Below the pieces are notes generated by a model, which saw only the letters and a program-made list of their open reading frames with translations, made no database searches and was not told the origin of the DNA. DNA of 64,000 nt from Rhynchobatus australiae (lineage: Eukaryota), in the NCBI GenBank assembly GCA_034780895.1, contig JAUZTB010000118.1:54926034-54990033 (forward strand). The letters are read 5' to 3'. How positions within the stretch are numbered: position 1 is the first letter of the stretch; the number at the start of each line of letters is the position of its first letter. A program made the position numbers and the translations under genes. Below, one piece after another: positions 15,875-36,475 of this stretch.

Positions 15875-16035
15875 AACATAAAAGAGGTCATTCAGCCCAG
15901 ACCACTACTGCTGACTTGAAAGAGCTTGCAAAATAACTTCACTTCAGCAATTCTGCACCAAAGGTCTGTATTCCTTTCACGTTCAGTATTTTTGCCAAGA
16001 ACTTCCTAGCAGTGCCAGGCCTTCCACGTTCACCA
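15875..16035 (-). mobile_element. Old CR1-type 3' end
   Basis: 'gaggtcattcagccc...ttgaaagagct...' aligns by eye to the reverse complement of elasmobranch CR1 3' UTRs. Confidence 0.55.
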
Positions 16036-16352
16036 TTCACCTACTGACCACCCGCACTTGCCTGACGATGATCCTCAAGTGAGGGAGGCTGACTCCAATT
16101 TCATTGGCAAGGTCCGGCAGTAAGATTTTCCAGATACCAGTTCCATACATGTACCAAGGCCAGAATAAGCTCAACCCACTGAAACACTAGAAGAAAAAAA
16201 GCTGTCCACCAGGTAAGCTACAGCTGTCAAAAACATTCAAAATCAGATCCTACCTAGATCGCTCTCTTGAACAATGTATTAATACACTTTCCCCAAGACC
16301 ATCATCACATCTCAAGCCAAAGTAACCTTGAGGGTTCTTTGTTGAACTTTAC

Positions 16353-16585
16353 CTTGTCCTCTTGTTCATCTCAGCTCTGGACAGAGCTTGAAAGACGGAG
16401 TCGTAAATGCGATGCTTGAACCACAGCTCATGCGCCACCTTCCCATAGATGCAGGCCAGTGTCACGAGTGGGACAAGGAACACTAGCAGCAGAATGACGG
16501 TGGTGTAGGCTTTCCTCTGCTGGGGCTGGTGCCAGACCTCCTGGCAGCAGATGTAGTGCACTTCGAAGAGGAAATCGTGCTGGAC
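16353..16585 (-). CDS. Isolated exon of a QRFP-receptor (GPR103/QRFPR)-like rhodopsin-family GPCR: ECL2-TM5-ICL3; function or pseudogene status unknown
   Basis: 233-bp open exon, acceptor gttgagcag|GTC, donor ACAAG|gtaaag. Peptide VQHDFLFEVHYICCQEVWHQPQQRKAYTTVILLLVFLVPLVTLACIYGKVAHELWFKHRIYDSVFQALSRAEMNKRTR aligns with recalled human QRFPR IKYDFLYEKEHICCLEEWTSPVHQKIYTTFILVILFLLPLMVMLILYSKIGYELWIKKRVGDGSVLRTIHGKEMSKIAR. No other QRFPR exon found. Confidence 0.85.
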
Positions 16586-16704
16586 CTGCTCAACAATCAC
16601 ACAGCAACGTAACACAGCCGCTGAGGAAATCACTGATCCCTTTCGCAGACAGGTAGCAGACCGAACTGTGGAAGGGGTGAATGTGGGGCAGGCAGTGTGG
16701 AAGG

Positions 16705-17095
16705 TGAACAAAGAGTAGGCCACTTGGCCCCTCAAGCCTCTCCCACCATTCGATAGGTCCATGGCTGATCTGCCCCAGGCCTCATCTCCTATTCTCTGCC
16801 ACTTCCCCATTAAACCCTCAAATCACTGATCATTCCAAACCATATTGACTTCTTCAAATACTCTCAATCATCCAGCCTCCACAAACATCTGGGGCCGAGA
16901 ATTCCAGAGATTCACCACCCTCTGTCAGAAGAAATTCCAAGGATCTTTTACGTTTCAGTAAGGTCACCACTTCTTCTCCTGAACTCCAAAGAATATTGGT
17001 CTAATTTCTTAAGCCATTGAGGATAGGACAGCCCTCTCATGCCAGTTATTAGCCTTGTTCATCTGTTCTGGACTGGTCCCAATGCCAGTATTTCC
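16705..17095 (-). mobile_element. CR1-type LINE 3' fragment
   Basis: 'gagtaggccacttggcccctcaagcct...catggctgatctg...gagaattccagagattcaccaccctctgtcagaagaaattcc' is a typical reverse CR1 3' end. Confidence 0.85.
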
Positions 17096-17097
17096 CT

Positions 17098-17450
17098 TTG
17101 AACATAGAACAGTACAGCACAGGAACAGGCCCTTCGGCCCACAATGTCTGTGCTGGCCATGATGCCAAATTAAACTAAGTCTATCTGCCTGCAAATGATC
17201 CATATCCCTCCATTCCCTGCCTGTCTAAATGCTTCTTAAACACCACTATCTTATCTGCTTCCACCACCACCCCAGGCAGCGTGTTCCAGGCATCTAACAC
17301 TCTGTGTAAAAGAACTTGCCCGCACATCTCCTTTAAACTTTCCCCCTCACACCTTAAAGTTATGCCTTCTGGTAATTGACATTTCTGCCCTGGGAAATAC
17401 ACTCTGACCATCCACCCTATCTATGCCTCTCATAATTTTATAAGCTTCTT
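17098..17450 (-). mobile_element. Younger HER1/CR1 3' fragment
   Basis: Tail 'gaacatagaacagtacagcacaggaacaggcccttcggcccac'; ORF 17181..17411 gives RVLDAWNTLPGVVVEADKIVVFKKHLDR (CR1 ORF2 C-terminus). Confidence 0.92.
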
Positions 17451-18039
17451 AACTAAGGGAAACAAAACTGTGTCCAGTAAAATTGTGAGGAGACAATTGG
17501 GTGGGAGAAGCAGGGGNNNNNNNNNNNNNNNNNNNNNNNNNNNNNNNNNNNNNNNNNNNNNNNNNNNNNNNNNNNNNNNNNNNNNNNNNNNNNNNNNNNN
17601 NNNNNNNNNNNNNNNNGCATGCATTTGCAAAATTATTTCATTTATTTTGATTTGAGAGGAAAGGAGACATCTTGGTTATTGGGATTTGTCAGTATTGCTG
17701 GCTTCCCACGAGTTTCAGCAATACTCCAGTGCAAGGGATTTCTTGCTGCTGGTGAGACCACCATAGTTATTACTGGCAGGATCTCCCGTGCCCTACTCCT
17801 CCCATTACACAGGACCTTCCTCCTCAGGACCTTTGGGATATTTTGTTTCACAGGAAGATCCAACTGGGAGTGCTACTCACAATCCTTTCACAGCCCACCA
17901 TAAACGGATGCATCATTACCTAGGTGACTATGCATACGATAGGCGATCAAATATTTGAAGTGAAATGTGGGACAAAATACTGACAAACCTTTTTGTGTTT
18001 TAACCAACTTTTGTAAAATTCTAAGTACAATCAATCTGA

Positions 18040-18580
18040 CACACAAAATTGGGTTCAATTTTGGTCATTTCTTCATAGGAAGGATGTGGAAGCTTTGGAG
18101 AGGGTGCAGAGGTGGTTTACCAAGATGCTGCCTGGTTTGGAGAATGTGCTATGAGGAGAGGTTTAATAAGACGAGGCTGTTTTCTCTAGAATGGTGGAGG
18201 CAGAGAGGAAATTTGATAGTTTAGAAAACGTGAGGAATGGATAGACAGCCAGTATCGTTTTCCCCCAGATTGAAATGTCTAATACCAGAGGGCATGTATT
18301 CAAGGTGAGAGGGGGAAATACAAAGGAGATGTGAGATACAAAGTTTTTTTTAAAACAACAAAGTGGGGGGGGGCTGGAATGCACTGCTGGGGTGGTGATA
18401 GAGGCAGATAACATAGGAGTGTTTAAGAGACTCTTAGATAGGGACATGAATGTGCAGAGAAAGGAGGGATATTGTCAATGTGAGGGGAAGAGGGATTAGA
18501 TTAGTTAGGATCCATTGGTTTAATTAGTTCAACACAACAACGTGGGTCAAAGGGCCTATTCTGTGCTGTACTGTTCTAAA
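18040..18580 (+). mobile_element. HER1/CR1 3' fragment
   Basis: RKDVEALERVQRWFTKMLPG-like remnant; tail 'gggtcaaagggcctattctgtgctgtactgttcta'. Confidence 0.9.
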
Positions 18581-19224
18581 CCAAATACCATGCATCATTT
18601 AAGTACATCTATTACTGTAGATTGAACATGTAGGCATTTCTGAGATCACAGCTGATATTATGTATTCAGGTAGCATCACATCAGAACCCTTACTGATTAA
18701 CACAACACCTTGTTAGTGTGAAACATTTTAAAAAGGTGTCAATTATTTTTGAGTAGTGCAGCAATAATCTTGGTCAGAAGCTTCCCAGAAAATATAGTAT
18801 TTTTTTGTTGCCAGAGTCGATTATTGGCCACAAAACAGCAAGGGACACCATTCAGCAGTCTAGGTGCACCAAATCTTAGTGAAGCTGGGTTGTTGACTGA
18901 TTGCAGCTATAGACTGAGGCAAAGGCCATGAGATTTTAGGTCCCAGCAACACAAGGGATCAGCAAATTTCCACCCGAGTGATAATCCGGGAGAATTTAGC
19001 AACACCTTACCTGAAGAACATGGCCCAATCTTTAATGGATATACTCAAAAGCAAANNNNNNNNNNNNNNNNNNNNNNNNNNNNNNNNNNNNNNNNNNNNN
19101 NNNNNNNNNNNNNNNNNNNNNNNNNNNNNNNNNNNNNNNNNNNNNNNNNNNNNNNAATCTTTAATGGATATACTCAAAAGCAAACTTGAATTTATTAATC
19201 ACCATTCACATCTTTATCAGATTC

Positions 19225-19470
19225 TTCCACTTTGCAGCAAATGATAGTACTTTGAAACTTGGTCACTGCTGTAATGTCAGAAATGTGTGCAGCCAGCTCA
19301 ATGTGACAACAACCGTAGTAGGGCCACGGGATAATTATACAGGACACAAGGATAATTCCACTACTTCAGGGCTATCGCTTAATGACTTATCCCAAACTCA
19401 ACAACATTGCACACAAGTGCCAACTGCCGATGTAGCAGCAGAACCTACAACCTAACTCAAGAGACAAGAG
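19225..19470 (-). mobile_element. Ancient Deu-domain SINE remnant (SacSINE1/AmnSINE1-like)
   Basis: 'gcagcaaatgatagtactttgaaacttggtcactgctgtaatgtcagaaatgtgtgcagcca' resembles the reverse 3' tail of Deu-SINEs. Confidence 0.55.
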
Positions 19471-20589
19471 TCCTACAAATGAGTCATGTCTGTCGCTATG
19501 CAAATAGGATATTTAATGAAATCATTTGTCTTGTTATTCATTAATGATTATTATTTGCCGAGTTTCATAATAACAAAACTAATTTTTTTTTTAAAAAGCC
19601 GTATTCTTCAAAAAAGCCCAAAAGGGATATGTTCAAATTTAATGGTTGTGCAGAGTCAATAAATTAAATTGAAATGTTGATTGGTACCAAGATAGAGGTT
19701 GTGTCAATGCAAGTGCAAATGACTACACTATAGCTAGTGTTAATTCAGTTTTTGACTGAAAAGCACTTTGAATGCTCCAAGCATTCTGACAGATGCAAAA
19801 AGTATGAAAGATACCCCCCCCCCCACCAAAGAAATTTGTTGATATTTTTAAGAAACTGAATACTAAGCAAATATGAAAGCTTTAAGTGTTCATGGAAAAT
19901 AAGAAAGAATGCTTTTTTGGTGGAGGAAGGAAGCAGGAGGGATGCAGAAGCAAGTAGTATGCAAAGAGCATTAGGAAGAATCTTACATAGGGTTGCAGGA
20001 AGATCCCCTGACAAAGATACACTGGAGCATAAATATAATGGGCAGCAAATTAGTCAACTGTATTTAATAATCAGCAAAATATTGATTTTATAACATCAAC
20101 ATTTTGAAAAATCACACCACCATTTGAAACATATCATTTACATCACAAAACAGAGTTAAATATGCTATTATTAATAATCCCTTGCCTGCACACTGCATTG
20201 AAAACATCAGTTAGGCCAGCTGGAATTAGATGGGCCAGAAAGCAAGTTCTCTATGCATAATAAGATCATTCTTCAGCTCCATGATGTAGTTGGCCATTGA
20301 ACAGATTGTCTACGCCACTAATTCATAAATCACCAGATGGATTGCTCAGAACAANNNNNNNNNNNNNNNNNNNNNNNNNNNNNNNNNNNNNNNNNNNNNN
20401 NNNNNNNNNNNNNNNNNNNNNNNNNNNNNNNNNNNNNNNNNNNNNNNNNNNNNNNNNNNNNNNNNNNNNNNNNNNNNNNNNNNNNNNNNNNNNNNNNNNN
20501 NNNNNNNNNNNNNNNNNNNNNNNNNNNNNNNNNNNNNNNNNNNNNNNNNNNNNNNNNNNNNNNNNNNNNNTTACAGATAATTCCTATAT

Positions 20590-20870
20590 TGAGTTAGGGT
20601 CATAAAGCATGGAAACAGGCCCTTCGGCCCATCATGCTGACTGTGTGGCCTAGCAAGCTAGTCCCATCTGCCTGTATTTGGCCAATAGCCCTCTAAACCT
20701 CTCCCATCCATGTACTTATCTAGATGGTTTTTAAAATGTTGCGCGTGCACCCACCTCAACCACTATTTCTGGCAGCTCATTCCAAATGCACAACATTCTT
20801 TGCAATGAAGAAGCTACGCCTGATGTCCCTTTTAAATCTCTTGCTTCTGATCTTAAACCTATGCCCTCTT
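20590..20870 (-). mobile_element. HER1/CR1 3' end (sister of 24215-24590)
   Basis: 'gcatggaaacaggcccttcggccc...agcaagctagtcccatctgcctgtatttggcc' shared almost verbatim with 24230-24490. Confidence 0.88.
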
Positions 20871-21184
20871 GCAGACCTACACCACACATATGCACAAGAG
20901 AAAAAAAATAAAACTGTTCACATTACATGCAAAATTAAAATGCAACAATTCAGATTTTAGAAAAAATTGAAAACTATGAATATTTAACCACAAGTTTCAA
21001 GATGCAAACTATAATCATGTAATTTAAAAACCAATGCATTTAATACCTCAGGTCATTTTCTAGAGCAAATCCACACCATCTATGTACCAGAAAATGCCTT
21101 TACATTCAAGTCACCCTGTTAAAAATCAAGACTTGTCCAGGTAATGCTCTACTTCTGCACTTGCTCTTCATCTTACTCAGAGTA

Positions 21185-21686
21185 AGAATAAGATTCCCCT
21201 CGTCCTCACCATCTTCCACTTTCAGCCAACCCATCTGTATTTTCCACCATCCTCAAATGCAATAGCACCACAACCAGATACAAGTACGGGTGCCCTCTCA
21301 GGATTCTGAAGGGTTAGTTCCTTCCAGGACTCCCCAGTTTACTGCATCTCTACCAGCTCTCTAGTCTCACCATATCTTCCAATGCAACTGCAGAAAATGC
21401 TACCCATTGTTTTCCTTTTCCATCATCCCAAGACCCAAGCACTACTCCAGATGAAGCAAAAATACACTTGCACTTAATTCCTCTTACTGCTTTCTCTGCT
21501 CATGTGCTCTACTCTACACTGGAGGAACCAATTATCACTTTACAGAACACCTCCTTTCAGTCTGCAAGAGTGACCTAGGGTGACCAATTGCTCATTATTC
21601 TCCAACCAATTCCCATTCTATTTACCTTTAGTCTCTTACACTTGCAAAAAAAAAAATGCAAGCCCAACCCAGGCTAAACAGTATTT
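21185..21686 (+). mobile_element. Degenerate Penelope-like element fragment
   Basis: 'aagattcccctcgtcctcacc...ccagatgaagcaaaaatacacttgcac...ctctactctacactggaggaaccaa...tttacagaacacctcc' resembles the GIY-YIG region (LYIGET...RFAEHL). Confidence 0.6.
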
Positions 21687-22608
21687 CATCCTCGACTTCC
21701 TCACTGGGAGCCAACAGTCAGTGCTGATTGTCAATAACAGCTTCTCCTCACTGACAATCAACACAGGCACACCAAGGATGTGTGCTTAGCCCACTGCTCT
21801 ACTCTCATAACTGTGGGGCTAGGCACAGCTCAAACACCATCCATAAATTCGCCCATGACTTCATTGCTGTCGGCAGAATCTCAGATGCAACAAGGAGGCG
21901 TACAGGAATGAGTATTTCAGTTGGTTGAGTGGTGTTGCAACAATGTCAGCACGACCAAGGAATTGATTGTGGACTTCAGGAAGGGGAAGTCTGGAGAACA
22001 CACGCCAGTCTTCATTAAGGAGTCAGCCGTGGAAAAGGGTGAGAAGCTTCAAGTTCCTGGGCGTCAACATCTCAGAGGATCTACCTTGGGCCCAACACAT
22101 TAATGCAATCATGAGGAAGGCAGGCCAGCAGCTCTACTTTGTTAGGATTTTGAAGAGATTTGGTATGTCAAAGATTTGCAAATTTCTACAGATGTACGGT
22201 GGAGAACATTCTGACTGGTTGCATCACCGCCTGATGTGGAATCTCCAATGCACAGCATTGAAAGAGCATGCAGAGGGTTGTAGACTCAGTCAGCTCCATC
22301 ACAGGCACAACCCTCCCCGCCACAGGATACCTTCAAGAGGCAGTGTCTCAAGACAGCAACATCCATCATTAAGGACCCTTACCATCCACATTACTACCAT
22401 CAGGAAGGAGCCGGAAGACTCATTCAACATTTCAGGAACACTTTCTTCCCTTCCACCATCAGATTTCTGAACAGTCCATGAACACTACCTTGTTATTCCT
22501 CTCTTACACTATTTTTTTATTTTTGTAATAGTAATTTATGTCTTGCACTGTACTGCTGCCACTAAACAACAAATTTCACAGCATACATCAAATGATAATA
22601 AACCTGAT
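21687..22608 (+). mobile_element. Rex1/Babar-clade LINE, 5'-truncated and degenerate
   Basis: ILDFLT, LTINTGTPxGCVLSPLLY, HKFAxD, TKELIVDFRK, VRSFKFLGVNISEDLPW motifs; 3' tail 'aacaacaaatttcaca...gataataaacctgatt'. Confidence 0.88.
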
Positions 22609-24214
22609 TAATCTCCCAGTGTATTATAACCTTCAGAATTCATTAAACTCAATAATTTGTATATTTCAGAACTGGTCAGGTCCTGAACCTATNNNNNNNN
22701 NNTCCAAAAAGATGCTACCCAGCATTCTCTTTCACTTCAGACTTTCAGCAGCAGCCGTGTTCCATCATTGGACTTTTCCCACCTCCTACCCCTCTCCAAT
22801 CTTCATTAATCTTCTATTTACAGTGAAACTCCAATAATCTGGTGCCATCATGACTCTGGTAATGCTGCATCAGCAGATTTTTCAGACTACTGAATGGCAT
22901 TCCTATTCATACCCAAAGCATTTCTATTTTACTATTTTTAATATTATGCAGCTAGGTAATAAGTTTTCCAGGGAATCCAGCATGTTTAAAGGGAGCAGGA
23001 AATATACAAGTACTCCAGACCCAACTCCGGCCATAAATCTACCTGCATTCCTGACAGCTGGTGTCCCCAACCCTGCATATTCAGTTCATTCTCTGGGCCC
23101 TGACTGCACTCCCATCACCCAACTCTGGCCATAGAGCCTGCTCGAATTTGGACCCCCACCTGCAATCCAGACTAATGAGCAAGCCAGATGTTGAACCATC
23201 AAGATTTCCAAACAATCAGAAGCCAGATTATTGGAGATGTTCTGTCCATCTCCTCCAGGCAGATCAGCTGAAGGTGAGCAAACCTTCATCTACAGGTGCT
23301 GTCACCACCTCACAGTTCCCCCATCCACCCCATCACTTCCTTTGTTCCCTCCCTCCCCCTTTTCAGCATGTGATGTCTAACCTTTCCGAGTTCTGATGAA
23401 AGATTGATTTCAAACCCTTTGTTTCTTTCCCTACAGAAGCTGTTTGACCTGTTGTATTTCTAGCTTATTCAATTTTAAGTATTGAAATAAAGGTCTAACT
23501 TGTGTTAGCTTACTGACTTCATTATACTGTTACGTGATGGTGGGAGAGTGATATTGCATTTGATTATAATGAATGACTGATAACCAAATATATTGAACCA
23601 TAAAGTAAGAAATATTTCTCCTGCAATTCATCTTAAGTTTTTAAAAAGTATAACTATGCCAAGCACAAAATAATTTTTGACTTTCATGTCATTATACAGT
23701 CTCTCCCCCACCAGGCATCTGGGAAGTTGATTTTAACCCTTTATGTACCATTACTGAATTACAGAAACCAATAACATCTCAAGTGGAAATGTTTAATTTT
23801 TGTCATAATTTTGATCAGTGTTAACTGATCAAAGCAAGGCATATAATGCAAACTCTCTTGACAGTAGAGGAAACCATACACATACATGTCAGTGTGGGTT
23901 ATGATGGGAAANNNNNNNNNNNNNNNNNNNNNNNNNNNNNNNNNNNNNNNNNNNNNNNNNNNNNNNNNNNNNNNNNNNNNNNNNNNNNNNNNNNNNNNNN
24001 NNNNNNNNNNNNNNNNNNNNNNNNNNNNNNNNNNNNNNNNNNNNNNNNNNNNNNNNNNNNNNNNNNNNNNNNNNNNNNNNNNNNNNNNNNNNNNNNNNNN
24101 NNNNCTGGAAATGCCAATTTCTGATAGGTCATGGCTCAGAGTAGAATGCTCTTCACCAAACCCACTATTAAGAACATAGAACTATAGATTACGGATAATA
24201 ATTCACAGATTATA

Positions 24215-24590
24215 GAGTCAGAGTCATACAGCATGGAACCAGGCCCTTGGCCCATTGTGCTGACTGTGTTGCCCAGCAAGCTAGTCCCATCTGCCTGTAT
24301 TTGGCCCATAGCCCTCTACACCTCTCCCATCCATGTACTTATCTAGATGGCTTTTAAATCTTGCTAATGCACCTGCCTCAACCACTATTTCTGGCAGCTC
24401 ATTCCAAATACACACCACCCCTTGTATAAAGCAGCTACCCTAGATGTCCCTTTTAAATTTCTTGCCTCTCATCTTAAACCTATGCCCTCTTCTTTTTGAC
24501 TTTTTCCCCCAGGGAGGGGGTGCTACGTGCTTTCACCCTGTCTATGCCGCTCATGATCTTTTATACCTCCATCAGGTCAGCCCTCAATCT
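24215..24590 (-). mobile_element. HER1/CR1 3' end
   Basis: Tail 'agagtcagagtcatacagcatggaaccaggccc'; same subfamily as 20590-20870. Confidence 0.88.
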
Positions 24591-27500
24591 TCATTCCCCA
24601 CCTCCAGCTATATACATTTCAGGAGTGGTTGTTACTTGCTCACAGTATGCCCCCACTGTTTATTCTTGGCAGCTTAAAGCCTGGGCCCGTGTCTACTTGT
24701 GATTGCTCTAGTGGACACCAATCTGCTTGTTGGCAGTTCTTTCCTTCACTGTGCAAATTGGCCACCACTTAATCTTTTGGCCCCAGCCTCCAGCTGTTTT
24801 GAAACAGATCCTGCCTGCTTAAAGTAGGCATGTTATTTGTCCACATGCAAGACTGCTTGACCATTGCAGCAGGTAGCAGAAAGCATTGATGAGGCTGCTA
24901 CAGGACCTTTCCAACTTTTCAATTGGAAAGTGTGCATTTCTCAAGAAGTGGATGGAAGGTATTTGAAATTTGCTCCCTTGCCGTCAATGAAGTATAGGTA
25001 TACTTCATATAAAGGAGATGCCAGCAAAATTCTGCAAGTTCTAAAGGCTGGGCATTAAGGACATTTTAGTACAGTGTATCCTTATGGGTGGAGAGGGGTG
25101 TGTTATCATCATATTAAAAACTGGATTAGTAAATAGAGAACACATAACCCAAGAAACCANNNNNNNNNNNNNNNNNNNNNNAGGAATACATGTACTTAAC
25201 AAAAAAAGTGGCAAAGCAAAGATCAAATGTGTTACACATTCTTTTTCCAGGAAGAATCATGGATTAGAAACCAAGTGTCTAAAACAGATTCCTTCACCCA
25301 AAAGTTGGAGACACCATGCACAACACCATATCTCAAATGTTAAATCAAATTCTCTTTTAATGACAGTGAAAATGAAATAACCCCAAAATAATTTTCTGTT
25401 AAGTTATCAGCCATTACTAAATCAGTTAATTCTTTAAAAAACATTTTATTTTTGTAGATTTTTGACAATAGCTGGCATTACAGAGTTTTGTAAAATGAAA
25501 AAAGGTCAAGTTAATATATCTGGTGTAAGTTACTACAATTGATGCATTTCATAGAATTTAGCAATGAATGCTCAATACATTTGCTTGAAAAAGAAAGATA
25601 CCAATCCCAACATTGCTATTTACCTAGTATATTAAAATAATTCATTTGATGCATTATGTATTCAGATACCAATACTGCACATTACATTTTCAATCAGCAC
25701 GATTCATATTCTTCCCTTTCAAGTGCGTACAGGTGGCCAAATATGTTCCCTTCAATTAAAGTACCAGTGAAGGAAAGCTTTGTGGGCAACTTGAAAGAGA
25801 TCTACATGCACAAATCATTCAAAGCCCACAGGAAAATTTTAATCCTTTCATTCTAATTACACTAACCTTGCATTTGGCCATTAAAGAACTAAAATATTAA
25901 CACACCATCAATGGATAAAGGGGCAGCTCATGTTTAAGCAGCAATTTAAACCCATAAATGAATGGAATACTGAATAAAATTCTTCATAGCGTGGTGTTTG
26001 TCTCTTTTCTTCCCTTTGCTCTGCAATACCATATTTACACTGGAGGATGGAACACTCCCCAATTTCAGCACTCACATCAAATACACCACATTTGGTTGCA
26101 AATAAAGCACCCATTCCAGCTCAGATGCATGCTTTATTCCTCATTACAAGAGTAACTACCTCACAATTGTAACGTTTGCAAGTTCAGTACTTGCCAGCTT
26201 GGTAGTCAGATAATCAAGGCCAGTTTCAAATTCTGCAGTACACTCCAAGCAAATCCAAGAATTGTTTTTACTCCAAAATCCAAATCTGTAAATTTGAACA
26301 TCTGGTGGATTTTCAAGAGCAAAGGTAAAACTGGTGATTTAATTATGAACAATAGTTTGCTTTCCAGTAACCTGGATAGGTTCAAATTTGGATGAATTAC
26401 AAATTCTAGACCAACTAGTTCTCAAATGCAATTATGAACACCATCCAAAACAACAAACTACACCAAATAATATCTATGGAAGAATATATTCTGTGCATCA
26501 GTTTCATTGAAATTGCATCACAAGGGGCTCAATGAGTCAGTATCAATATATCAGTCCAAGTACTGTAGCTGCAGTTACCAAATCCAATCAAATTTCACTG
26601 CTCTTTCCACATTTGTTTTCATAGTTTTCCTCTTCCAGATCAGTTAAAAGGATGACTCTGCTTCAACTATTGACTATGCCAAAACATTATATATTTGGTT
26701 GGGGAAAATATAAAAACTTTTCCATTTTGCTCTTTGAGAATAACCCAAATTCACAAGATAACACCATGAAACAAAATGGAGTGAATTTGATACAATTTGA
26801 ACATAGACATCAAAAGAGACAGCTGGGCCTGGACCACCAAGCTGGTCCACAACATGCCATTCAGTGTTCCTGATATCCCAACTTTCCTTTTTGCAACATC
26901 ATGATCTTACAGTTTGATTCTACATCAATGAATACTTAACTCTGTGTCACTGCAATTCAATTAAGGCATCGGCCCTAACCCCTTCCATAATATTCAGAAA
27001 CTAAACTCTCAAGTTCGTGGCAAAGACCACAATCCACAGTTCAAAGGCATTTACAGTACAATTCAATTCTTATGTATTAACCATCCATCCTGAATTTTGA
27101 ATTAGTATAGACTGCAATATATTGTTCCTTAATTTCAATTCACCTTCATGATACAGAGTATCATCTCCATACCAGCACTTGCCTGCACAACACAACGAAT
27201 CTAATCACATATGCCTCCTTTAACCTTTAAGATTTACTTTCTGCAAAAATACTTGCAATGTATTATTATGCAAACTGCAGATTGCACAGCATTAGGGCTT
27301 TACTGCAATGGGCCAGAGGGTCTGAACTAGGCCTGAGTCTCCAGTCTTCAATTTGGCTACTCAAAGCATACACAAACATAAATTAGGAATTGGCCACTCA
27401 TTCCCTTTGGACAGCTCCACCAGTTAATAATTGATTATAACCTCAACTCTATTTACCTGCAAGAACTTTTGTTACATCATAGGTGGCCATGCCCCTATCG

Positions 27501-28629
27501 GGTTTGTGCTGGCTTGCAGCAGAGCAATCACATCATTCTTATTATTTCTCTACCACTGCCTTAAACACATTCAAAGTTTGTTTCTACCGCCCTTTCAAGA
27601 AGAGTTCCAAAGAACCAACACCCTTTGAGAAAAAAAATTACCTCATGTCTTAAATGGATTAAACAGTGACCAATTTGAGATTCTCCCAAAAACTTCCTCT
27701 CTGCATCCACACTGTCAGGACTCCTCAGGATCTGATGTTTCAATCAAATCCCCATTCTTAAATTCCAACAGGTACAAGCTCAGCTTGTCCAACCTTCTTC
27801 CAAAGACCAACCAGCCCATTCAAGATATTGGTCAAGTAAACTTTGAACTGTTTCCAATACATTAACATCTTTCCTTAAAATTAAAAAAGGCCAAAGCTGT
27901 ACACATTTTCCTGTGCTCAGCAATGATCCGCGCACCTGGAGAACATCATCCATTTTTCTGTTCTACTTACAATAAACAGTAATATTCCATTAGCTTTTCC
28001 AATTGCTTGTTTCTGAGCTGCATGTCAGTCACTCACAGGGCCTGCAGTTAGTCCACCCAATCCCTGCGCACTCTGCAATGGACCCTGCCAACCAAGCCAA
28101 TCACCTCCCTAGACTTGAGCAATGAACTGTGTTATACCAAGGCACGCGCATTCGAAAAAAAAATCAATTAAAGTAAAACACTCCACAGGCATGGATTTAA
28201 ATGTAGTTAATGTAATAGCCTCCCCACCCTCTGAAACAAATATGCCCAATGACTTCTGCAAGTTACTGCAATGAAAGTATTTTTTCTACAATTTGTCTTT
28301 GTCAGCAAATCAGACATTGTTTTGTTCATCCCATAATTTAGGTAGGGCTGTGCAACAGCAGAGGTAGAATAAAAGAAAAAAGATGTCTCTTGTTCAATAG
28401 AAATTATTTTTAGCTATTCTCAATTAACCTTGTTGCCAATGATCTCTCAGCTCAAGAGACTCAACCTCATTTCCCCTGCTACAGTGAGATATAATTAAAA
28501 TATCCTGGGTACTATGTACACCCACCTATCCTGATTGTCTGCTACAACTTTAACTGAGAATAGAACTGAAAAAAAAATCAGTTTTTGAAACTAGATAATG
28601 TTCCTTTAGAACTTTGCCCAGAATTGTCT

Positions 28630-28935
28630 TATGACACAGGAGGCCATTCAACTTATGGGGTTGATGCCAGCACTGAGCAAAGCAATCCCATTCCCCCCTT
28701 GGATTTTTCCCCGTAACCTCTCAACTCATTGTCTCGCACATGCCATTCACAGCCCACCACTTTAATACGTTTCCTACTTACCTACACCAAGGGTAATTTA
28801 CCATTGCCAATTAACCTACTCTCAAATCTTTGTGACATGGAAGGAAACCAGGGCACCCAGAGGAAACCCATTTGGTCACAGGGAGAACATGCAAACTCCA
28901 CTCAGAGTTCAGGATCAAGCTCAGGTCACTGGAAT
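28630..28935 (-). mobile_element. Degenerate HE1/V-type SINE with CR1-like tail
   Basis: 'ggaaggaaaccagggcacccagaggaaacccatttggtcacagggagaacatgcaaactcca' V-domain. Confidence 0.75.
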
Positions 28936-30789
28936 TGTTTTTCTATGTAAAAGTACCAATTTATTTTTCAAAATAGAACTTTTTATACCTGTACTTGATT
29001 CCTTAAAGATTCATTTCCATCCCCAAATGTTTTTCTCCATACAGTTAAAAGGTTTGTCCTAGGGTAGCCATTGCTTCCCTTACTATGTTTAATAGTTACC
29101 TTGCTACTTCCAGGCAGTAATATGCCATCCAAGATGGACTTTTGAGCACACAGCAATCAAATTGTTTTTTTCTAAAAAAGGAAATCACACTACCCAAGCA
29201 AATCATCCATACACAAAGTGCATGTGGAAGTACACAATTAAAATCTGGAAGTCTTTCTACAACATTTATAAAATCTCACGGGCATAAGGAAAAGAGAATT
29301 TTTGAGACATTTCTGCTTACTTTCCATTATAGAAGAACTTATTCTCCTTCCGTCTGATTTATTTTTGACCTTTTCAGAGATCAATGCTCACTGTTAAAGC
29401 ACNNNNNNNNNNNNNNNNNNNNNNNNNNNNNNNNNNNNNNNNNNNNNNNNNNNNNNNNNNNNNNNNNNNNNNNNNNNNNNNNNNNNNNNNNNNNNNNNNN
29501 NNCACTGTTAAAGCACACCACCACAGGTGCTGGGCACTTGCTGCCACAACAACCAATGCAATTGGCTATGCAAAAGCTTCTACACTAAAGCAAGAATAGA
29601 GTTTGATTCTGAGGAAGTATTACTGCACAGTATTGTCCTTTGTAAGCCTGCAAACCCAAGTATCCTAATAATTAACCAAAGATGCCATTAAAAAAGTCTT
29701 AAAGCCAGTCATTTGTGACTGTGATATTGCAGGAATTGTACGCTTTGCAGCAAGTAATTTATTCTTCTTTCAACATGCACATGAATATAAACTAAAACAA
29801 AACTAATAGAGTACAAATCACAAGTCCAACAGAAGGTAATATTTTAAAAACACAGGAAGTGGAAATTAACTACATCTAAAATTATTTCAACATATTACAC
29901 AATCTCATCTCTTTGACCCTGGGTAAATAACACCGCACAGATGCTCAGATATATATGTAATGCAGAGATTAAGGGACAAGAGTAGATAGTTAGCAACTGC
30001 AGAAACAAAACAGAATCCCTCACAGCCAATACAATGCATACAATTACTTCCCAATTTAAAAAGTTGAAATTTTTATTTAAAAAATCAGATTTTTGAATGA
30101 CCCATGAACACTACCTCATTTGTTTTGAACTATTTTGTAATTTATATTAACTTTTGTCTTTGCACTGTGCTGCTGCCACAAAACAACAAATTTCACATCA
30201 TCAGTCAGTGATAACAAACCAGATTCTGAAATAAATCTTTGTTGGTGTGCAAATGCTACATGTCCACATCTGGAAAGCAAGATCTTTAAAATAATCTGCC
30301 GTGGAATCTGTCCATTGGTTTAATTTATTCTGGATGTAACATTTTCAAGCTGTTGACCAATTTATCATGCTTACAGTGATTCTGTTGTCTCAGCTGCATA
30401 TAACTTGCAGATTCTAACAGTACTTATTGTAGAAAAATGAATTATTTATCATACCAGTTCTTGTGAACTGAAAAACACTGTGCCCCTGGTCATATTTGTT
30501 TTCCACAATTCATAAAACACGATATCTTAAAATAAACACTTAATTGACCAAAGCCTGTGAAGAAACTAGGCATACAACACACGAATAGCCTTACATATTG
30601 GTAGGGGTAGAACGTGTGGGAGTGTAACACATGGGAATCAACTGCATTTATGTGGTGAAATATCTATGCAGAAGATGATGATTGTAATAAAATCAAAATG
30701 CAACAAGCATGCCAAGGATTAGATGGATGCAGCTGTTCCCAAGTTGGGGTTTTATGGAGTTGGGGAGGGGCTGGTCAGGAAGACAACAA

Positions 30790-31600
30790 GGAAGGCCCAG
30801 GACAGCATGGTGGTACAGGTAGATTGGAAAATGGCAAATGCAGTGCACATATACAAAGACAAAGCAGATATGGAATTACCATTGTCATGGGCATTAGTTC
30901 ATTTTGCAGTAGAACACAATTGAAAACTTGATTACCTGCACAAAATTAATGAACAGCATAAGATTCACAAGGTGAATGTCTAGCCTGACCAGTTTCTTCT
31001 TCTCCTTCCAACTGAAGTGAAAGATGGACTACTGACAGCTCCTGATGTGCTGCATCCAGGCTTACACTTGACAAAGTTTCGCAGCAAAAAAAATTTAAGT
31101 TTAAAACTGTAGAGATTCAAGTGAAAACTGGATTAAGGGCAGGAAGTATTTGAGTAAAAGGTTGTGGGATTGAAGAACTTAATGGGAATGTTTTACTATT
31201 TTGGTTTACAATTTTACATAAAATTATTTGGATTCAGAAACTCTATGCAATATGGTTAAATTTACATACCAATCTAAAGAGGGCAAGGGAGCTCAGAAAT
31301 TACATCACAAATTGGACAAAAAGGTAAGAAACAAAGAAATGAATTCTAATGCAATATGAGTGGATACAAGCAGAGATGTGACGTGGCGTCATGCTTGGCA
31401 TTCGGAAGAAGAGATCCAAGGCACAAGTCAGAGAACACGGACTCAATTTCCTTACATTCTAGAATCTTGAATACGTGCTCAGCTCTGGTTACCGAGACAC
31501 AAAAGAATCATTCAAGCATTGGAAGGAGCAGATAGAAGTAGTCCAGGCGAACCTCCAGAATCAAAGGTCAGTGTTATGATAAATTTTCACATTACACCAA
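30790..31600 (+). mobile_element. Very old CR1 RT remnant
   Basis: VQVDWKMANAVHIYKDK resembles the CR1 VPEDWRxANVTPIFKKG motif; further decayed CR1-like blocks follow. Confidence 0.55.
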
Positions 31601-34600
31601 AACAGTGAATGGCATCCAGGAGCAATAATTAAAAGTGAAAAGTTGATAGCTGAAATGGAGAGGGGTTTCTCCTGAAGAGGAGCTGTGTCAAGCAGACCTT
31701 CACAACTGAGTTTAGGAATTCATGCAGAAATTACTGCTGCAAGGATAATCATGCAAGAAAATTTCTACAAATTATGAATTTCATCAGTTCTGCTGCCAAA
31801 TGTATTAAACAATCAAAATCCCAGGCAGTTTAACACTTTATGAACCTAAAAACCACATCATATTCACCAGCTTAACCGTCAATCATAAATAAGCAAAAGC
31901 TCTTTCAGGTTAGGTGAACTTATATAGTAACGAGAACAAAACAACTCAACTATTAAATAACATAGGGGTACAACGTTAACAGACATGGCTTGGGTTCAAA
32001 AAGACTGATTTAATTTATCCTTAAAATGAAAAAGACAATTCAATGTGTGATTTCCCTCACTGCCAGAGGGTTAATCTAGGGTCAGAACTTCAGAGCCAGC
32101 CAAACCACAGGAAAGGTGCTTGAAGAAGGGTACTCATGAAAGGGATAGATCTCCCCAGTGAGGTTGTGGATTGATGTGGAATTGAAATTTTCACATCAAG
32201 TTCAAAAGATGTGCTTGTAAGAGTATTAAGGATATGAAACAAAAGGTAGCCATTTGGAATTGCAGATCAGGCAAAAGGTTGTGACCAAACTCAAGAGTGA
32301 CCTCATCTTATACCTACAGGTCTATGGAATTAAACACAAGAACATAATTGGAAGCAGGAGTTTTGGCCATTTGGCCCTTTGAACCTGCCTCACTATTCCT
32401 CACAGTGATGCCTGATCACTATATTTGAGCACTAAGTCTATATCCCTCAATTTTCTTTGTACCCAGAAATCCATTCATCTCAGATTTTTAAAATGAATGC
32501 ACTGTGCCTCTGGGAAGAAAATTCCAAAAGGTAATATAATACAAGAATAACCAAAGCATACAATTTACAAGCAGCATCTTGCCACAAACTGGAAATAGAT
32601 AACAAATCTAATAAACATTAGACAGCAGTTTGTCAAATAGTAGCTTGTAAACTCCACCCCTTTAACTAAGTCTCTCTGACTATTTCCCTATATCTCAATG
32701 ACAGATTTTACTTGATAATGCTTCTGTGGGATATTTCACTCTGTCAAAACCACCATACAAATAGACATTGCTGGTAGGTGGAAACATTAGTATTTTAAAA
32801 TCATGCTGTGGACTCTGTTGAAACCATGCAAGTGACCAGAACAGATATACATGATATTTTACTCAAAAATACTACACTGATAACTTGATCATTTCAATAA
32901 TCCCCAAACCTTTGAGTCTGAGCCAGAAGTTGGAGATTAAAGCCACTGTCCAGAGAAAGCTTGTTGATATTAGTTCTAATTCTGTTGTGGAGCAACTTCT
33001 ATTACCTGCACTTAATAATCACCCAGTTAAAATTAGTCTTAGCTGGTAAACCCATATATAAAAGGCTGGTTTTCCTCCATTTACAAAACAGATTCCGTTA
33101 CAGCCAGTTAAGACTCAAACAGCCTTTCACAGCAAGATAACCAGAGCTCATACAATTTTATAACTCATTACCTTGTGACAACAAAGCTTGGAAGCACTGT
33201 TTACAAAATGAACAGCTAAGTAATAAAAGTATAATGTTGTTCTTGTCTTACCTATTGCAGAAATAAACATAACCAATGGATGTGGGTCACAAAGCAGCAA
33301 TCTATTCAAACAATGCAGACAATATCAGCTAAATCTCTGCCACTTAATTACATTTGCTTTTCCTACAAATTAAAACTTCTCAGCTCTTCAAGTCACCACA
33401 CAGTTATCCTTTTGCATATCTCAAATTACACAGTCGACACCAATTTATCCTTGGCAAAACTACTGCTCCTCAACTTGTATCTATCTTCCGCCCAAGAGGC
33501 CGACCTATACCATGCCAGGTCTTTCCCTTTCACTCTGCGGTTAGATGACTGGAATATCTGTACCGAACACCTGCAGAGAACACTGTAACAAAAAGCACAG
33601 CTGCAGAACCTGCAAGGCAACACCATAATTTAGTTAAAATGAAGGGGTATTCACCACCTCACCAGCAGAATTATTAATAAATGTTCAAAGGACAAATAAA
33701 ATTTACAGTATTATTAAACAGAAAAGCTCCCATTAACAAGAAAAAAAAACAGCTAGAAAGTAAGTACACCGAAACCATTTGTTTTTGACTAGAATTGACA
33801 CCGTCAATCAAGTCTTGCGACAAATGTTGCGTCAAATTGTTAGAAGACACCGGCATACACTGGACTTTTAAATAAATAAAAAGGAAGTCGAATCAAAGCA
33901 AAATCCCAAAGGCCGTGGTTTCCGTGAATATCTCCACAGATCTTTAAACAAAAAGAACCAGAAACAAATTGTTCTAAAAGTAAAATAAAAAGTTACTTGG
34001 ATATCTTTCCAAAGGCTTTCTTGTAGTTTTTGGTGGAATATGTTACAATTTTGCTTTTGAACAACATGTACATCACGAATAAGCACCACGATGGGAAACA
34101 GGAACACTTGGAAAATAAGACCTAACCTTGGGGAATTAACAAAGAAAACAGCAGTGCCCACGATTCTGGTCAAGGTAAACCCTGTCGCCTGCAACAGGAC
34201 TCTCTCAGCACGAGAGAAGGAAAACCTCCACTCAGGGTCACCACTCCTGCTCTGTGATTCGGACGTGTTACCATCCACATCAACTGGCTTCTCTNNNNNN
34301 NNNNNNNNNNNNNNNNNNNNNNNNNNNNNNNNNNNNNNNNNNNNNNNNNNNNNNNNNNNNNNNNNNNNNNNNNNNNNNNNNNNNNNNNNNNNNNNNNNNN
34401 NNNNNNNNTGGAAACATTAATGAATACCTCCGGGAAATCCAAATAAATAATATTTATATTTACAAAATTTTAGATTGTGGATCAACAAACGTTTACATTT
34501 AACAATTAGGAACAAGAACGTTAATTTGCTGGAAAGTGAACGCAAGTAAACAGGTACTACAAATATGTACAGTCCCATAACAAAAGTGCAAGTTATATTT

Positions 34601-34767
34601 ATTGGGCATTTACCCGGCTGTGTATATATAGCGATAGGAAGCTCCTTCACTCTCATTCTACAAACAAGCCTCCCTGCTCTCCAATGTAAGCCAGCAGGAA
34701 AGCAGCGAAGACCTACAACTTCCACCAAACTACAAGTTTCTCTCAAAACTCCTTGCAACTGACTGAC

Positions 34768-34960
34768 CTCGTTCACTGCACAACCGGGAGGGAAGCTAGT
34801 TCTGTCCGAAAGACCGGTAACTTTAACTTTCTTCCACCCACCTCCTTTTGTAACCGAACACACAGAGGAGACTGCCGTGTCGCTGCTTTGTACACACAGG
34901 ACATAGAACCGCACCGCGCATGAACACCAGTATATTGGGGAACTGTGGGAGATGTAGTGT
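34768..34960 (-). promoter_or_regulatory. Promoter and non-coding first exon, probably KANK1 (by synteny only)
   Basis: CpG-enriched, repeat-poor zone ~33450-35030. ACTACATCTCCCA (ZNF143/THAP11-type ACTAYRNNNCCCR motif) on the minus strand at 34946-34958; GCGCATG NRF1 half-site near 34917; strong donor GAG|gtcagt at 34768/34767. KANK1 follows DOCK8 on the same strand in vertebrates. Confidence 0.6.
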
Positions 34961-35074
34961 CACAGCACTGAGTCTCAATAATAAAACTACAAAGGCTTAA
35001 GGAACTTTGGACAGCTTAATCGCAGTCCATTTTTAACAGTGCAAAGGAGGTAAAGGAAAAAAATTACAGAAAAA

Positions 35075-35180
35075 AAAAGACTTGCACTTTTGTATAGAAG
35101 ATTTTATCTGCCAATGATATTTTACAGCCAATGCAGTGATTTTGAAGATTAGTCACTGATGTAATGTGAGAAATGCAGCA
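35075..35180 (-). mobile_element. Deu-SINE 3' tail (left half of a split element)
   Basis: 'aaagacttgcacttttgtatag...tttacagccaatgcagtgattttgaagattagtcactgatgtaatgtgagaaatgcagca' matches the reverse Deu-SINE tail. Confidence 0.7.
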
Positions 35181-35640
35181 AACGGGAAAGGATGCGAAAA
35201 AAAAGATTTATGAGGATGTTACGGGGATTGGAGGGCTTGAGTTGTAAGGAGAGGCTGGATAAGCTAGGACTTTTTCTCTGGGGCATAGGAGGCTGAGGGG
35301 TGACCTTTTAGAAGTTTATAAAATCATGAGGGACATAGATAAGGTGAATAGCTGTGGGAGTCCAAAGCTAGAAGGCATAGGTTTCAAGTGAGAGGGAAAA
35401 GATATAAAAGAGACCCGAGGGATAGCTTTTACACACAGAGGGTGGTGCAGAATGAGCTGCCAGGGAAAGTTATAGAGGCAAGTACAATTACGACACTTAA
35501 AAGATATTTGTACTGGTATATAGATAGGAAAGGTTTAGAGGGATTTGGGCCAAATGCAGGCAAATGGGACTAGCTCACTTAGGCAACTTGGTCAGCATGC
35601 ATGTTGGGCCGAAGGGCCTCCTTCTGTGCTGTATAGCTCT
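35181..35640 (+). mobile_element. HER1/CR1 3' fragment
   Basis: RLRGDLLEVYKIMRDIDKV and VQNELPGKVIEASTITTLKRYL remnants; tail 'gggccgaagggcctccttctgtgctgtatagctct'. Confidence 0.92.
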
Positions 35641-35733
35641 GACAAGCAGCTCCTCTGTGTGCTTTGTCAACATTCAAAGAACCGTCATGGCCACAAGCTG
35701 TTGCTGCTGGAAGAGGCTGTGCAAGAGTTCAAG
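35641..35733 (+). pseudogene. TRIM-family B-box-2 C-terminal fragment with native exon-end donor (DKQLLCVLCQHSKNRHGHKLLLLEEAVQEFK|gt)
   Basis: Matches the TRIM27/39/35-type pattern D-x3-C-x2-C-x5-H-x2-H-x4-EEAVxxFK at the end of the RING/B-box exon. The first His position is Arg (cgt). The 5' end is fused directly to a CR1 tail. Confidence 0.72.
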
Positions 35734-36092
35734 GTGAACAGACTGTGAAAGGTAAAACATGGAAACGGATCTGGGCTGGTTTCTCTGTTGGATTTAATCA
35801 TTTCTCAATAGAGCCGGAACTTCAAATAATGTGTTTGTGTTTCATGACTCAGTTCTTTATAACGTTGGTCAGGAAGCAGAAAGATAAAGGGAGATTTCCA
35901 TTTCAAACTGCCCTTTGAACACCCAATGAAATCTCCCGGACAGTTTACTATCAGATCAATACCGCTGGGTCCTCAATGGTGGGTGAGGGTCTGTGGGATG
36001 TGTTTACTTCACCTTGCGAAGTCTGGTTAATGCCCTGTCCAATTTTATTTATTTCAAAATATACTATATTCATAAAAAAATCTAAAATACAA

Positions 36093-36197
36093 AAGGAGGG
36101 CTATGTGGGAGGGAAGGGTTAGGTAGATCTTAGATAAAATATCGGCACAACATTGTGGGCTGAAGGGCCTGTACTGTGCTGTAATGTTCTATGTTCT
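36093..36197 (+). mobile_element. Short HER1/CR1 tail
   Basis: 'ggcacaacattgtgggctgaagggcctgtactgtgctgtaatgttctatgttct'. Confidence 0.85.
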
Positions 36198-36224
36198 CAA
36201 AGCTCTTTGGCTCTCTGATTCTAT

Positions 36225-36475
36225 ATTTGCATAAAACTAGCTCTCCCCAACGCCCAGATATCAATGAGTTCATGGCCACAAGGAAACTTCCTGCTCTGCT
36301 TCAAAATAGTGCTGCAAAATCTTCTACATTAACTTGAGAGAACATTAGGAACTTCAGTTTAAGTTCTCATCAAGAAGATAGCATGCCTAGCAGTGGAAGG
36401 TTGAGTAGTGCACTACAGCATAAGTTCACTATGTTGTGCTCTGATCTCCAATAGTGAGGCTTTAAGCCACAGTAA
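36225..36475 (-). mobile_element. Deu-SINE central domain and head (right half of the split element)
   Basis: 'aacttcctgctctgcttcaaaatagtgc...tcttctacattaacttgagag...cttcagtttaagttctcatcaagaagatagca' matches the reverse Deu domain. Confidence 0.68.

What the first reader, a model, noticed from the sequence alone, without database searches (positions are those of the whole stretch)
15875..36224. Two host-gene fragments share one architecture: CR1 3' end > gene fragment with splice site(s) > second co-oriented CR1 tail (possible CR1-mediated exon capture)
Seen, unit 1 (minus strand): CR1 3' end 17095-16705, ~120 bp of intron-like DNA, intact QRFPR-like exon 16585-16353, ~320 bp intron-like DNA, old CR1 tail 16035-15875. 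Seen, unit 2 (plus strand): CR1 3' end 35181-35640, TRIM B-box fragment 35641-35733 with donor and intron start, CR1 tail 36093-36197, then tail-like 'ctctctgattctat'. Both fragments are sense to the flanking LINEs, keep intronic flanks, and belong to neither DOCK8 nor KANK1. Established: 3' transduction is well documented for L1, whereas CR1-clade LINEs are thought to need their own 3' tail for priming. Inference: read-through from one CR1 to a downstream CR1 tail could mobilise the intervening genomic DNA, or ectopic recombination between CR1 copies could do the same. CR1 is so dense here that chance flanking is a real alternative.
Basis: partly seen in the sequence, partly recalled or inferred. 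Interest (0 to 1): 0.7.

Follow-up and report, generated by a model that had tools for sequence, protein, structure and literature searches.

The report
One misassembled exon, one CR1-carried fragment
One of the two gene scraps is an assembly error (a receptor exon missing from a gap in its own gene on another chromosome); the other is a likely dead piece of a TRIM gene lying inside an older jumping element's tail, likely copied there from unspliced RNA by a CR1 retrotransposon, which would mean such elements can move host exons.

Summary
The shared architecture fails. Unit 1 is a misassembly: the exon is exon 4 of a QRFPR-like gene on contig C75, which has the other five exons and a 1396-N gap there; the window contig's end overlaps that gap's edge (41/43); read contigs of 4 of 4 runs leave the window at a shared 21-base word (16290-16310), and one relative's contig spans the site without the block. 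The TRIM exon end, intron and a second-family CR1 3' end (35641-36200) lie between two AGCTCT copies, and the first CR1's octamer tail resumes in register after them. Both junctions stand in read contigs of this species and a close relative. Best reading: CR1 reverse transcriptase primed at an intronic CR1 tail in TRIM pre-mRNA and copied upstream (5' transduction; about 0.5, plus 0.2 for a template switch). Weak points: no donor gene found, the empty site in an outgroup only suggested, and continuity through the first CR1 unproven. A single dead fragment.

The parts
16290..17516 (-). Misplaced block: belongs in the 1396-N gap of the QRFPR-like gene at G000:C75:3259521-3260916 (1184 of the 1396 bases, plus the 43-base overlap)
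16290..16310 (.). 21-base word shared by the host locus and QRFPR-like intron 4: the false join
   Evidence: table 8: X1 contigs 15480-16310 (+48 other letters) and 16290-16788 (65 other letters before), both without differences; X2, X3, X6 break at the same place
16353..16585 (-). Exon 4 of 6 of a QRFPR-like receptor gene (residues 185-261), intact, only copy in the assembly
16705..17095 (-). Old CR1-type 3' part, ordinary resident of QRFPR-like intron 3
   Evidence: profile hit 16914-16706, E 5e-33; linked to the exon by an X1 contig
17096..17441 (-). Second CR1-type 3' end (TTCTATG tail) in the same intron
17474..17516 (+). Contig end that overlaps the C75 contig start beside the gap, 41 of 43 bases; only other match in the genome
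15875..16035 (-). Host-locus DNA; at most a faint CR1 remnant
34409..34452 (+). Stray assembly junk at the start of unit 2's contig (55 bases identical to C48, overlapping by 21 a 32-base match to C42)
   Evidence: X3 contig bridges 34294 to 34453
35181..35640 (+). CR1 no. 1 (octamer-tail family), 5'-truncated, at most 80% like its best other copies; the landing site. Stops short of its tail
   Evidence: its 5' end is tied to host DNA in X6 (34971-35209)
35635..35640 (+). Left copy of the 6-base direct repeat AGCTCT (likely target-site duplication)
   Evidence: sequence
35641..35733 (+). 3' end of exon 1 of a RING-B-box-coiled coil-PRY/SPRY TRIM gene (residues 92-122 of P0011), with GT donor; one B-box histidine of the relatives is replaced
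35734..36090 (+). Start of TRIM intron 1, ending in a 45-base A-rich remnant of another repeat (36048-36092)
36091..36197 (+). CR1 no. 2: last ~105 bases of a different, abundant family (TTCTATG tail); CAAA on both sides (36090-36093, 36198-36201)
36201..36206 (+). Right copy of AGCTCT
   Evidence: sequence
36207..36224 (+). Rest of CR1 no. 1's octamer tail, in register after the right repeat

Best explanation
Unit 1 is an assembly chimera that puts exon 4 of a QRFPR-like gene on the wrong chromosome, while unit 2 is a 560-base piece (TRIM exon end, intron, CR1 3' end) lying between two AGCTCT copies inside an older CR1's tail, likely inserted by CR1 reverse transcriptase priming at an intronic CR1 tail in unspliced TRIM RNA. 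Unit 1, shown: two loci share one 21-base word and the contig crosses from one to the other; inferred: the two true continuations were short dead ends (48 and 65 letters in X1) that a short-word assembler clipped. Unit 2, shown: nested anatomy, both junctions in read contigs of two organisms, single copy, no other exon of that TRIM gene in the assembly. Inferred: a 105-base CR1 end sat in TRIM intron 1 in sense orientation; a CR1 protein bound it in trans, nicked the tail of CR1 no. 1 downstream of DOCK8, began copying 3 bases past the tail, ran 560 bases upstream and stopped inside exon 1; the donor gene was later lost or is unassembled. The piece has no start, acceptor or promoter that I could see and is likely dead. 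Odds: unit 1 artefact 0.97; unit 2 a real insertion 0.8; this exact route 0.5.
For: Unit 1: full-length ray protein finds exons 1, 5, 6 on C75 and residues 183-263 only in the window; exons 2 and 3 also on C75, 1396-N gap after exon 3; 41/43 end overlap, 2 matches genome-wide including itself; 4 of 4 runs break at 16290-16310 and X3's 2401-base contig goes from 16294 to 17617 with 125 letters between. Unit 2: 6 of 9 family copies align up to 35640 and all 6 go on with an ATGACTCT-like unit, which the window shows only after 36206; that stretch scores 18/22 against the octamer repeat, a level reached at 7 sites in 966,954 positions, the other 6 being tails on CR1 bodies, and at 0 of 1,956,108 Markov windows; of 31 listed copies matching CR1 no. 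2, only one (itself an octamer-family element) is followed by such a tail; X1 and X3 contigs span CR1-to-TRIM (35605-36120, 35606-36120) and CR1 no. 2-to-right flank (36170-36697, 36172-36669); in the most distant run, X6, both ends run on unlike the window (34 letters left of 35641, 45 left of 36226); right flank GC 0.362 matches 27% of 448 C118 windows and 0 of 118 windows round C81 TRIM genes; CR1/L2 target-site duplications peak at 3-5 bases, range 1-8 for ZfL2-1 (PMC4245944).
Against: No donor: best other matches in the assembly are 51% (exon 1 front, 147 of 147 candidates scored), 48-62% (middle exons, 74 of 74) and 59% (PRY/SPRY, 91 of 339 scored); X1, X2 and X3 each show one contig's depth over the intron, so a copy-and-paste needs a later loss of the source. 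No listed contig crosses 35210-35604 or 36121-36169 (table cut by the tool), and this very contig starts with chimeric junk. X6's alignment stops at 36226 and does not include the tail rest 36201-36225, which a simple empty site should share; its loose letters could not be read. The octamer template and both repeats were chosen after seeing the sequence; a 6-base repeat inside a repetitive tail is partly expected; the left CAAA overlaps the element's own A-run. Neither CR1 end folds better than shuffles (z -1.1 and 0.3). X1's contigs end where the window's contigs end, so it may be the assembly's own data and not independent.
Confidence: 0.5

Rival explanations
1. Unit 2 is a real CR1 insertion with a template switch: the enzyme copied 105 bases of CR1 no. 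2 RNA, then jumped at an A-run to TRIM pre-mRNA. Same outcome, but the CR1 tail never sat in the donor intron.
For: AAAA at 36091-36094 can belong to either side; sense orientation and target-site repeat fit; template switching by CR1 enzyme is proposed for a bird SINE (PMC5729268); extra 5' sequence is common at ZfL2-2 ends (PMC4245944).
Against: CAAA on both sides of CR1 no. 2 reads like its own older target-site repeat carried along, and explains the 3 extra bases at the 3' end; the paper says most 5' extras come from the flanks.
Confidence: 0.2
2. Unit 2 is also partly an artefact: a decayed TRIM pseudogene at its native place, hit by CR1s in exon 1 and intron 1, joined to the DOCK8 region through CR1 no. 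1 by the assembler.
For: Single copy in 4 of 4 runs and no donor; CT|GAC at the left junction fits a normal CR1 3' end entering the exon; the assembly makes such joins (unit 1; 34409-34452); 17.5% N in 520,000 unselected bases.
Against: Needs a bodiless octamer tail by chance just after CR1 no. 2 (0 of 6 other such tails lack a body), a host-like GC in the right flank, and loss of every other exon as well.
Confidence: 0.15
3. Unit 2 is a DNA-templated patch: TRIM DNA copied into a break in CR1 no. 1's tail, with CR1 no. 2 either copied along or inserted later.
For: Intron retained; short repeats can arise at staggered breaks.
Against: The piece ends within 3 bases of a CR1 tail and is sense to it; neither is expected from DNA repair.
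Confidence: 0.12
4. One reading: read-through from an upstream CR1 to a downstream CR1 tail (or recombination between them) moved both fragments with both CR1s.
For: The order of parts is present in unit 2.
Against: Unit 1's junction does not exist in reads and its second tail is not detectable; in unit 2 the repeat excludes CR1 no. 1 from the moved piece and its 5' end is tied to host DNA in an organism that lacks the junctions.
Confidence: 0.03

Closest known systems
5' transduction by SVA elements (human)
   Same: A host transcript that runs into an element is retrotransposed with upstream sequence; the source element's own target-site repeat can be carried along as an ultra-short 3' piece (PMC12593883, passages).
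   Different: SVA uses L1 protein and a poly(A) tail; here the handle would be a 105-base CR1 3' end in an intron, with a 6-base repeat, and no source locus was found.
SINEs with CR1/L2-derived tails (HE1/HER1 in sharks and rays, eel UnaSINE, bird TguSINE1/PittSINE)
   Same: A LINE 3' tail of about 100 bases lets a foreign RNA use the LINE enzyme in trans (PMC3747384, PMC5729268, passages).
   Different: SINE heads are tRNA/5S-derived and amplify; this is one copy of protein-gene pre-mRNA.
5' extra sequence and chimeric inserts of L2/CR1 LINEs (ZfL2)
   Same: Short target-site repeat, 5' truncation, foreign sequence at the 5' end (PMC4245944).
   Different: Those extras are described as several nucleotides, largely from the flanks; here 450 bases of a distant gene.
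L1 3' transduction (exon shuffling)
   Same: Retrotransposon moves unspliced host sequence.
   Different: Host DNA lies downstream of the driver there; upstream here. The general description is recalled; only titles were seen in a reference list.
Chimeric contig from a short-word (de Bruijn) assembly
   Same: Unit 1: exact short word at the join, parent locus with a fitting gap, reads that go on differently.
   Different: Nothing; the assembler itself is unknown.

Membership tests
Assembly chimera (unit 1) | Junction absent from reads, which continue differently on both sides | tested here: met
   4 of 4 runs
Assembly chimera (unit 1) | True home has a gap of fitting size and an overlapping contig end | tested here: met
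   1396 N, 1184 filled, 41/43 overlap
Assembly chimera (unit 1) | Host site continuous without the block in a relative | tested here: met
   X3 contig 16294 to 17617
Retrotransposon 5' transduction (unit 2) | Host sequence upstream of and sense to the element's 3' end, insert ending at the tail | tested here: met
   3 bases past the tail
Retrotransposon 5' transduction (unit 2) | Short target-site duplication round the whole cassette | tested here: met
   AGCTCT 35635-35640 and 36201-36206, target tail resumes in register; picked after the fact
Retrotransposon 5' transduction (unit 2) | Source locus holding the same flank and element | tested here: not met
   none in the assembly or in 3 close runs; so filed as 'works like', not as a proven member
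Retrotransposon 5' transduction (unit 2) | Empty site in an outgroup | tested here: inconclusive
   X6 lacks both junctions but its loose letters were not shown
Retrotransposon 5' transduction (unit 2) | Single-molecule continuity with host DNA on both sides | not testable with these tools
   only short contigs; none listed across either CR1
L1-type 3' transduction / read-through from the upstream CR1 | Target-site repeat encloses the upstream element and the host piece together | tested here: not met
   the repeat lies between CR1 no. 1 and the fragment
CR1-group LINE (both tails) | 3' microsatellite after a conserved end | tested here: met
CR1-group LINE (both tails) | 3' hairpin | tested here: inconclusive
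   a stem forms but not beyond shuffles
CR1-group LINE (both tails) | APE endonuclease and RT placing it in the CR1 clade | tested here: inconclusive
   PF03372 at E 1.8e-4, below Pfam's cut-off, upstream of a family-2 tail across a 2291-N gap on C48; no RT tree; the ORF2-end motif in CR1 no. 1 is recognised from recall

The most novel reading that the evidence does not exclude
Short CR1 3' ends scattered through introns act as handles by which CR1 reverse transcriptase retrotransposes unspliced host RNA, so stringent LINEs do shuffle exons with their splice donors in sharks and rays; unit 2 is one such event, and many more lie hidden as nested CR1s.
Probability: 0.3. Interest if true: 0.7.

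Novelty: new variant of a known kind. Interest (0 to 1): 0.38.

Why it matters
CR1-group LINEs need their own 3' end to prime (PMC3747384, PMC8665684), which is taken to limit retrocopying of host genes. They make up 22-34% of shark and ray genomes (PMC13343379), and here about 2.2 CR1-type ends lie in every 10 kb. If an intronic tail is enough, these genomes have a route to move exon-plus-donor pieces, testable in long-read ray genomes by a simple signature (split element, short repeat, foreign piece ending in a sense CR1 tail) and in a cell retrotransposition assay. I found no report of this for CR1 in 7 full-text searches, which cover open-access papers only. The case itself is one dead 560-base piece. 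Unit 1 matters as a warning: this assembly moves exons between chromosomes through 21-base words, so orphan exons in it should be distrusted.

Tried and rejected
Donor search by DNA for both fragments: only the window itself. C48 and C42 as homes for unit 2's contig: matches lie inside contigs, no TRIM exon in 30 kb of C48; the 2291-N gap there is flanked by CR1 parts. Synteny test through ray DOCK8 records failed: the search is limited to 2000 residues and none of the 120 listed of 815 hits carried a ray name; the window gene is DOCK8-like (96% to Callorhinchus DOCK8), with coding exons down to about 50,000. KANK1's large exon was not found among ORFs of 150+ residues in 120 kb beyond the window start, so 'KANK1' is unverified. 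Pfam gave no family for the 31-residue TRIM piece and a sub-threshold 7tm_1 hit for the exon. No RNA holder listed. X1 depth on the TRIM piece (11.9) is above its neighbours (4.8-7.8) but contig depth is no copy number; not used. Bacterial promoter scan was irrelevant. Earlier findings: none returned. Suh 2015 (J Mol Evol) is not held; only its title was seen in reference lists. Only 4 of the 14 listed runs were laid. An earlier count said 7 of 9 copies continue with the tail; the correct count is 6 of 9 reaching the position, all 6 continuing.
Full report
Setting. The window is G000:C118:54926034-54990033 of a 2.23-Gb ray-like assembly. It holds 23 N gaps and contigs of 0.6-6.7 kb; 17.5% of 520,000 unselected bases are N. 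A DOCK8-like gene on the minus strand has coding exons down to about 50,000. Both units lie beyond its end. Each fragment has only one DNA copy in the assembly.

Unit 1 is a misassembly. The exon (77 residues) is 87-92% identical to ray QRFPR-like receptors (6 of 6 hits) and matches the human receptor. The full sawfish protein finds exons 1, 5 and 6 at C75:3245978-3272229 (88-96%) but residues 183-263 only in the window. Exons 2 and 3 are on C75 too, followed by a 1396-N gap. The last 43 bases of the window contig (17474-17516) match the first 43 bases of the C75 contig beside that gap, 41 of 43, same orientation; it is the only other match in the genome. Contigs of four public runs were laid on 13883-19055. 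In X1, without differences from the window, one contig covers 15480-16310 and goes on for 48 other letters; another covers 16290-16788 after 65 other letters. X2 leaves at 16310, X6 enters at 16290 after 470 other letters and runs on beyond 17516. X3 has one 2401-base contig that covers 14520-16294 and resumes at 17617 after 125 letters: the host site without the block. The two loci share the 21 bases 16290-16310; a given 21-mer has about 0.0008 chance partners in this genome, so such pairs are numerous genome-wide. The block 16290-17473 fills 1184 of the 1396 missing bases. The CR1s above the exon are ordinary intron residents; the 'old tail' below it is host DNA and barely scores as CR1. That clipped dead ends caused the join is inference.

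Unit 2, what is there. The 31 residues are the end of exon 1 of a RING-B-box-PRY/SPRY TRIM (73-84% to 5 of 5 ray proteins); relatives read N/H-H-R-G-H where the window reads N-R-H-G-H, so a likely zinc ligand is displaced. In the sawfish the orthologue is fused in one gene model with another TRIM and further domains on a 19.9-Mb record; that it belongs to a TRIM cluster like own C81 is inference. Laid contigs: X3 bridges 33800-34927, X1 covers 34459-35110 and X6 34971-35209, so host DNA runs into the 5' end of CR1 no. 1. X1 (no differences) and X3 span 35605-36120, from the CR1 end through the TRIM piece into CR1 no. 2, and both link CR1 no. 2's end to the right flank. So both junctions are real and older than the split from X3's organism (about 2.5% apart). 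In X6 (4-10% apart) the TRIM contig has 34 unlike letters left of 35641 and the right-flank contig 45 unlike letters left of 36226. No listed contig crosses the inside of either CR1; the tool showed 8 records per run. The first 44 bases of this window contig are junk from other loci.

CR1 no. 1's family ends ...CTGTATAGCTCT followed by ATGACTCT units (6 of 9 copies reach that point and all 6 go on so). The window copy stops at AGCTCT (35640). After CR1 no. 2 and three bases, AGCTCT recurs (36201-36206) and two degenerate octamer units follow in register. This stretch is a true octamer tail: 18/22 matches, reached at 7 of 966,954 positions, the 6 others all tails on CR1 bodies, and at none of 1,956,108 Markov windows (template chosen after the fact). 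CR1 no. 2's family does not carry that tail (31 listed copies, one exception that is of the other family; 881 X1 contigs go on with ATGTTCTA and then disagree). The right flank has host-like GC (the C81 comparison windows are centred on exons). So there are not two flanking CR1s but one CR1 split by a 560-base insert with a 6-base repeat. CR1 no. 2 has CAAA on both sides, perhaps its own earlier repeat, though the left copy overlaps its A-run.

Mechanism. CR1/L2 inserts have repeats of 3-5 bases at the peak, 1-8 for ZfL2-1 (PMC4245944; abstract, passages and section 10 read). These LINEs recognise their own 3' end and mobilise SINEs that share it (PMC3747384, PMC8665684, PMC5729268; passages). 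An insert that is sense to, and ends at, a CR1 tail, is cut short at its 5' end and has such a repeat is what priming at an intronic tail in pre-mRNA would leave; SVA 5' transductions, some carrying the source's own repeat, are the closest parallel (PMC12593883, passages). LTR-driven retrocopies (PMC5131818, passages) differ: no LTRs here. I put this route at 0.5, a template switch at 0.2, a native pseudogene plus a mis-join at 0.15, DNA repair at 0.12.

Against. The donor is missing: nothing above 62% for any other exon in the assembly and one contig's depth over the intron in X1, X2 and X3. X6's flank does not align over the tail rest, as a plain empty site would. Neither CR1 end folds beyond shuffles. 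The assembly is shown to make false joins. X1 may be the assembly's own reads.

Chance flanking. 110 CR1-type ends in 489,048 bases; 183 of 154,436 random exon-sized pieces are flanked as loosely as unit 1 was described, 9 of 154,221 as tightly as unit 2. Flanking alone is therefore weak evidence genome-wide; the split tail is what carries unit 2.

Verdict. Observation partly confirmed; interpretation partly supported for one unit by a different route. Seven open-access searches (listings seen) showed no CR1 transduction of an intron-bearing gene piece. New variant of a known kind, one dead copy, donor unproven: interest 0.38.

Noticed in passing
window 34946-34958 (minus): ACTACATCTCCCA, the only match in the window to a motif I recall as the ZNF143/THAP11 promoter element (0.04 expected), in a CpG-richer stretch 15 kb past DOCK8's last coding exons and 230 bases from CR1 no. 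1; possibly an upstream KANK1 or other promoter facing left.
   Followed up: partly
window 34409-34474; G000:C48:34129894-34129948; G000:C42:14424619-14424650: A chain of exact matches overlapping by 21 bases, a second sign of short-word false joins in this assembly.
   Followed up: yes
G000:C75:3262688-3262883: Exon 2 of the QRFPR-like gene is itself interrupted by a 10-N gap and foreign-looking letters; the gene will be mis-annotated as broken.
   Followed up: partly
G000:C77:6690350-6709707: A second QRFPR-like paralogue (38-48% identity).
   Followed up: no
G000:C30238:35-1012 and C53919:2-736: TRIM matches that run across several exon borders in one open frame: possible intronless TRIM retrogenes on small unplaced contigs.
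   Followed up: no
whole assembly: The TRIM gene that sawfish and stingrays hold (P0010-P0014) has no orthologous exon here except this fragment: gene loss or a dropped locus.
   Followed up: partly
window 36048-36092: A-rich 45-base piece with two 84% matches in fetched loci, likely the reversed end of a third repeat family.
   Followed up: partly
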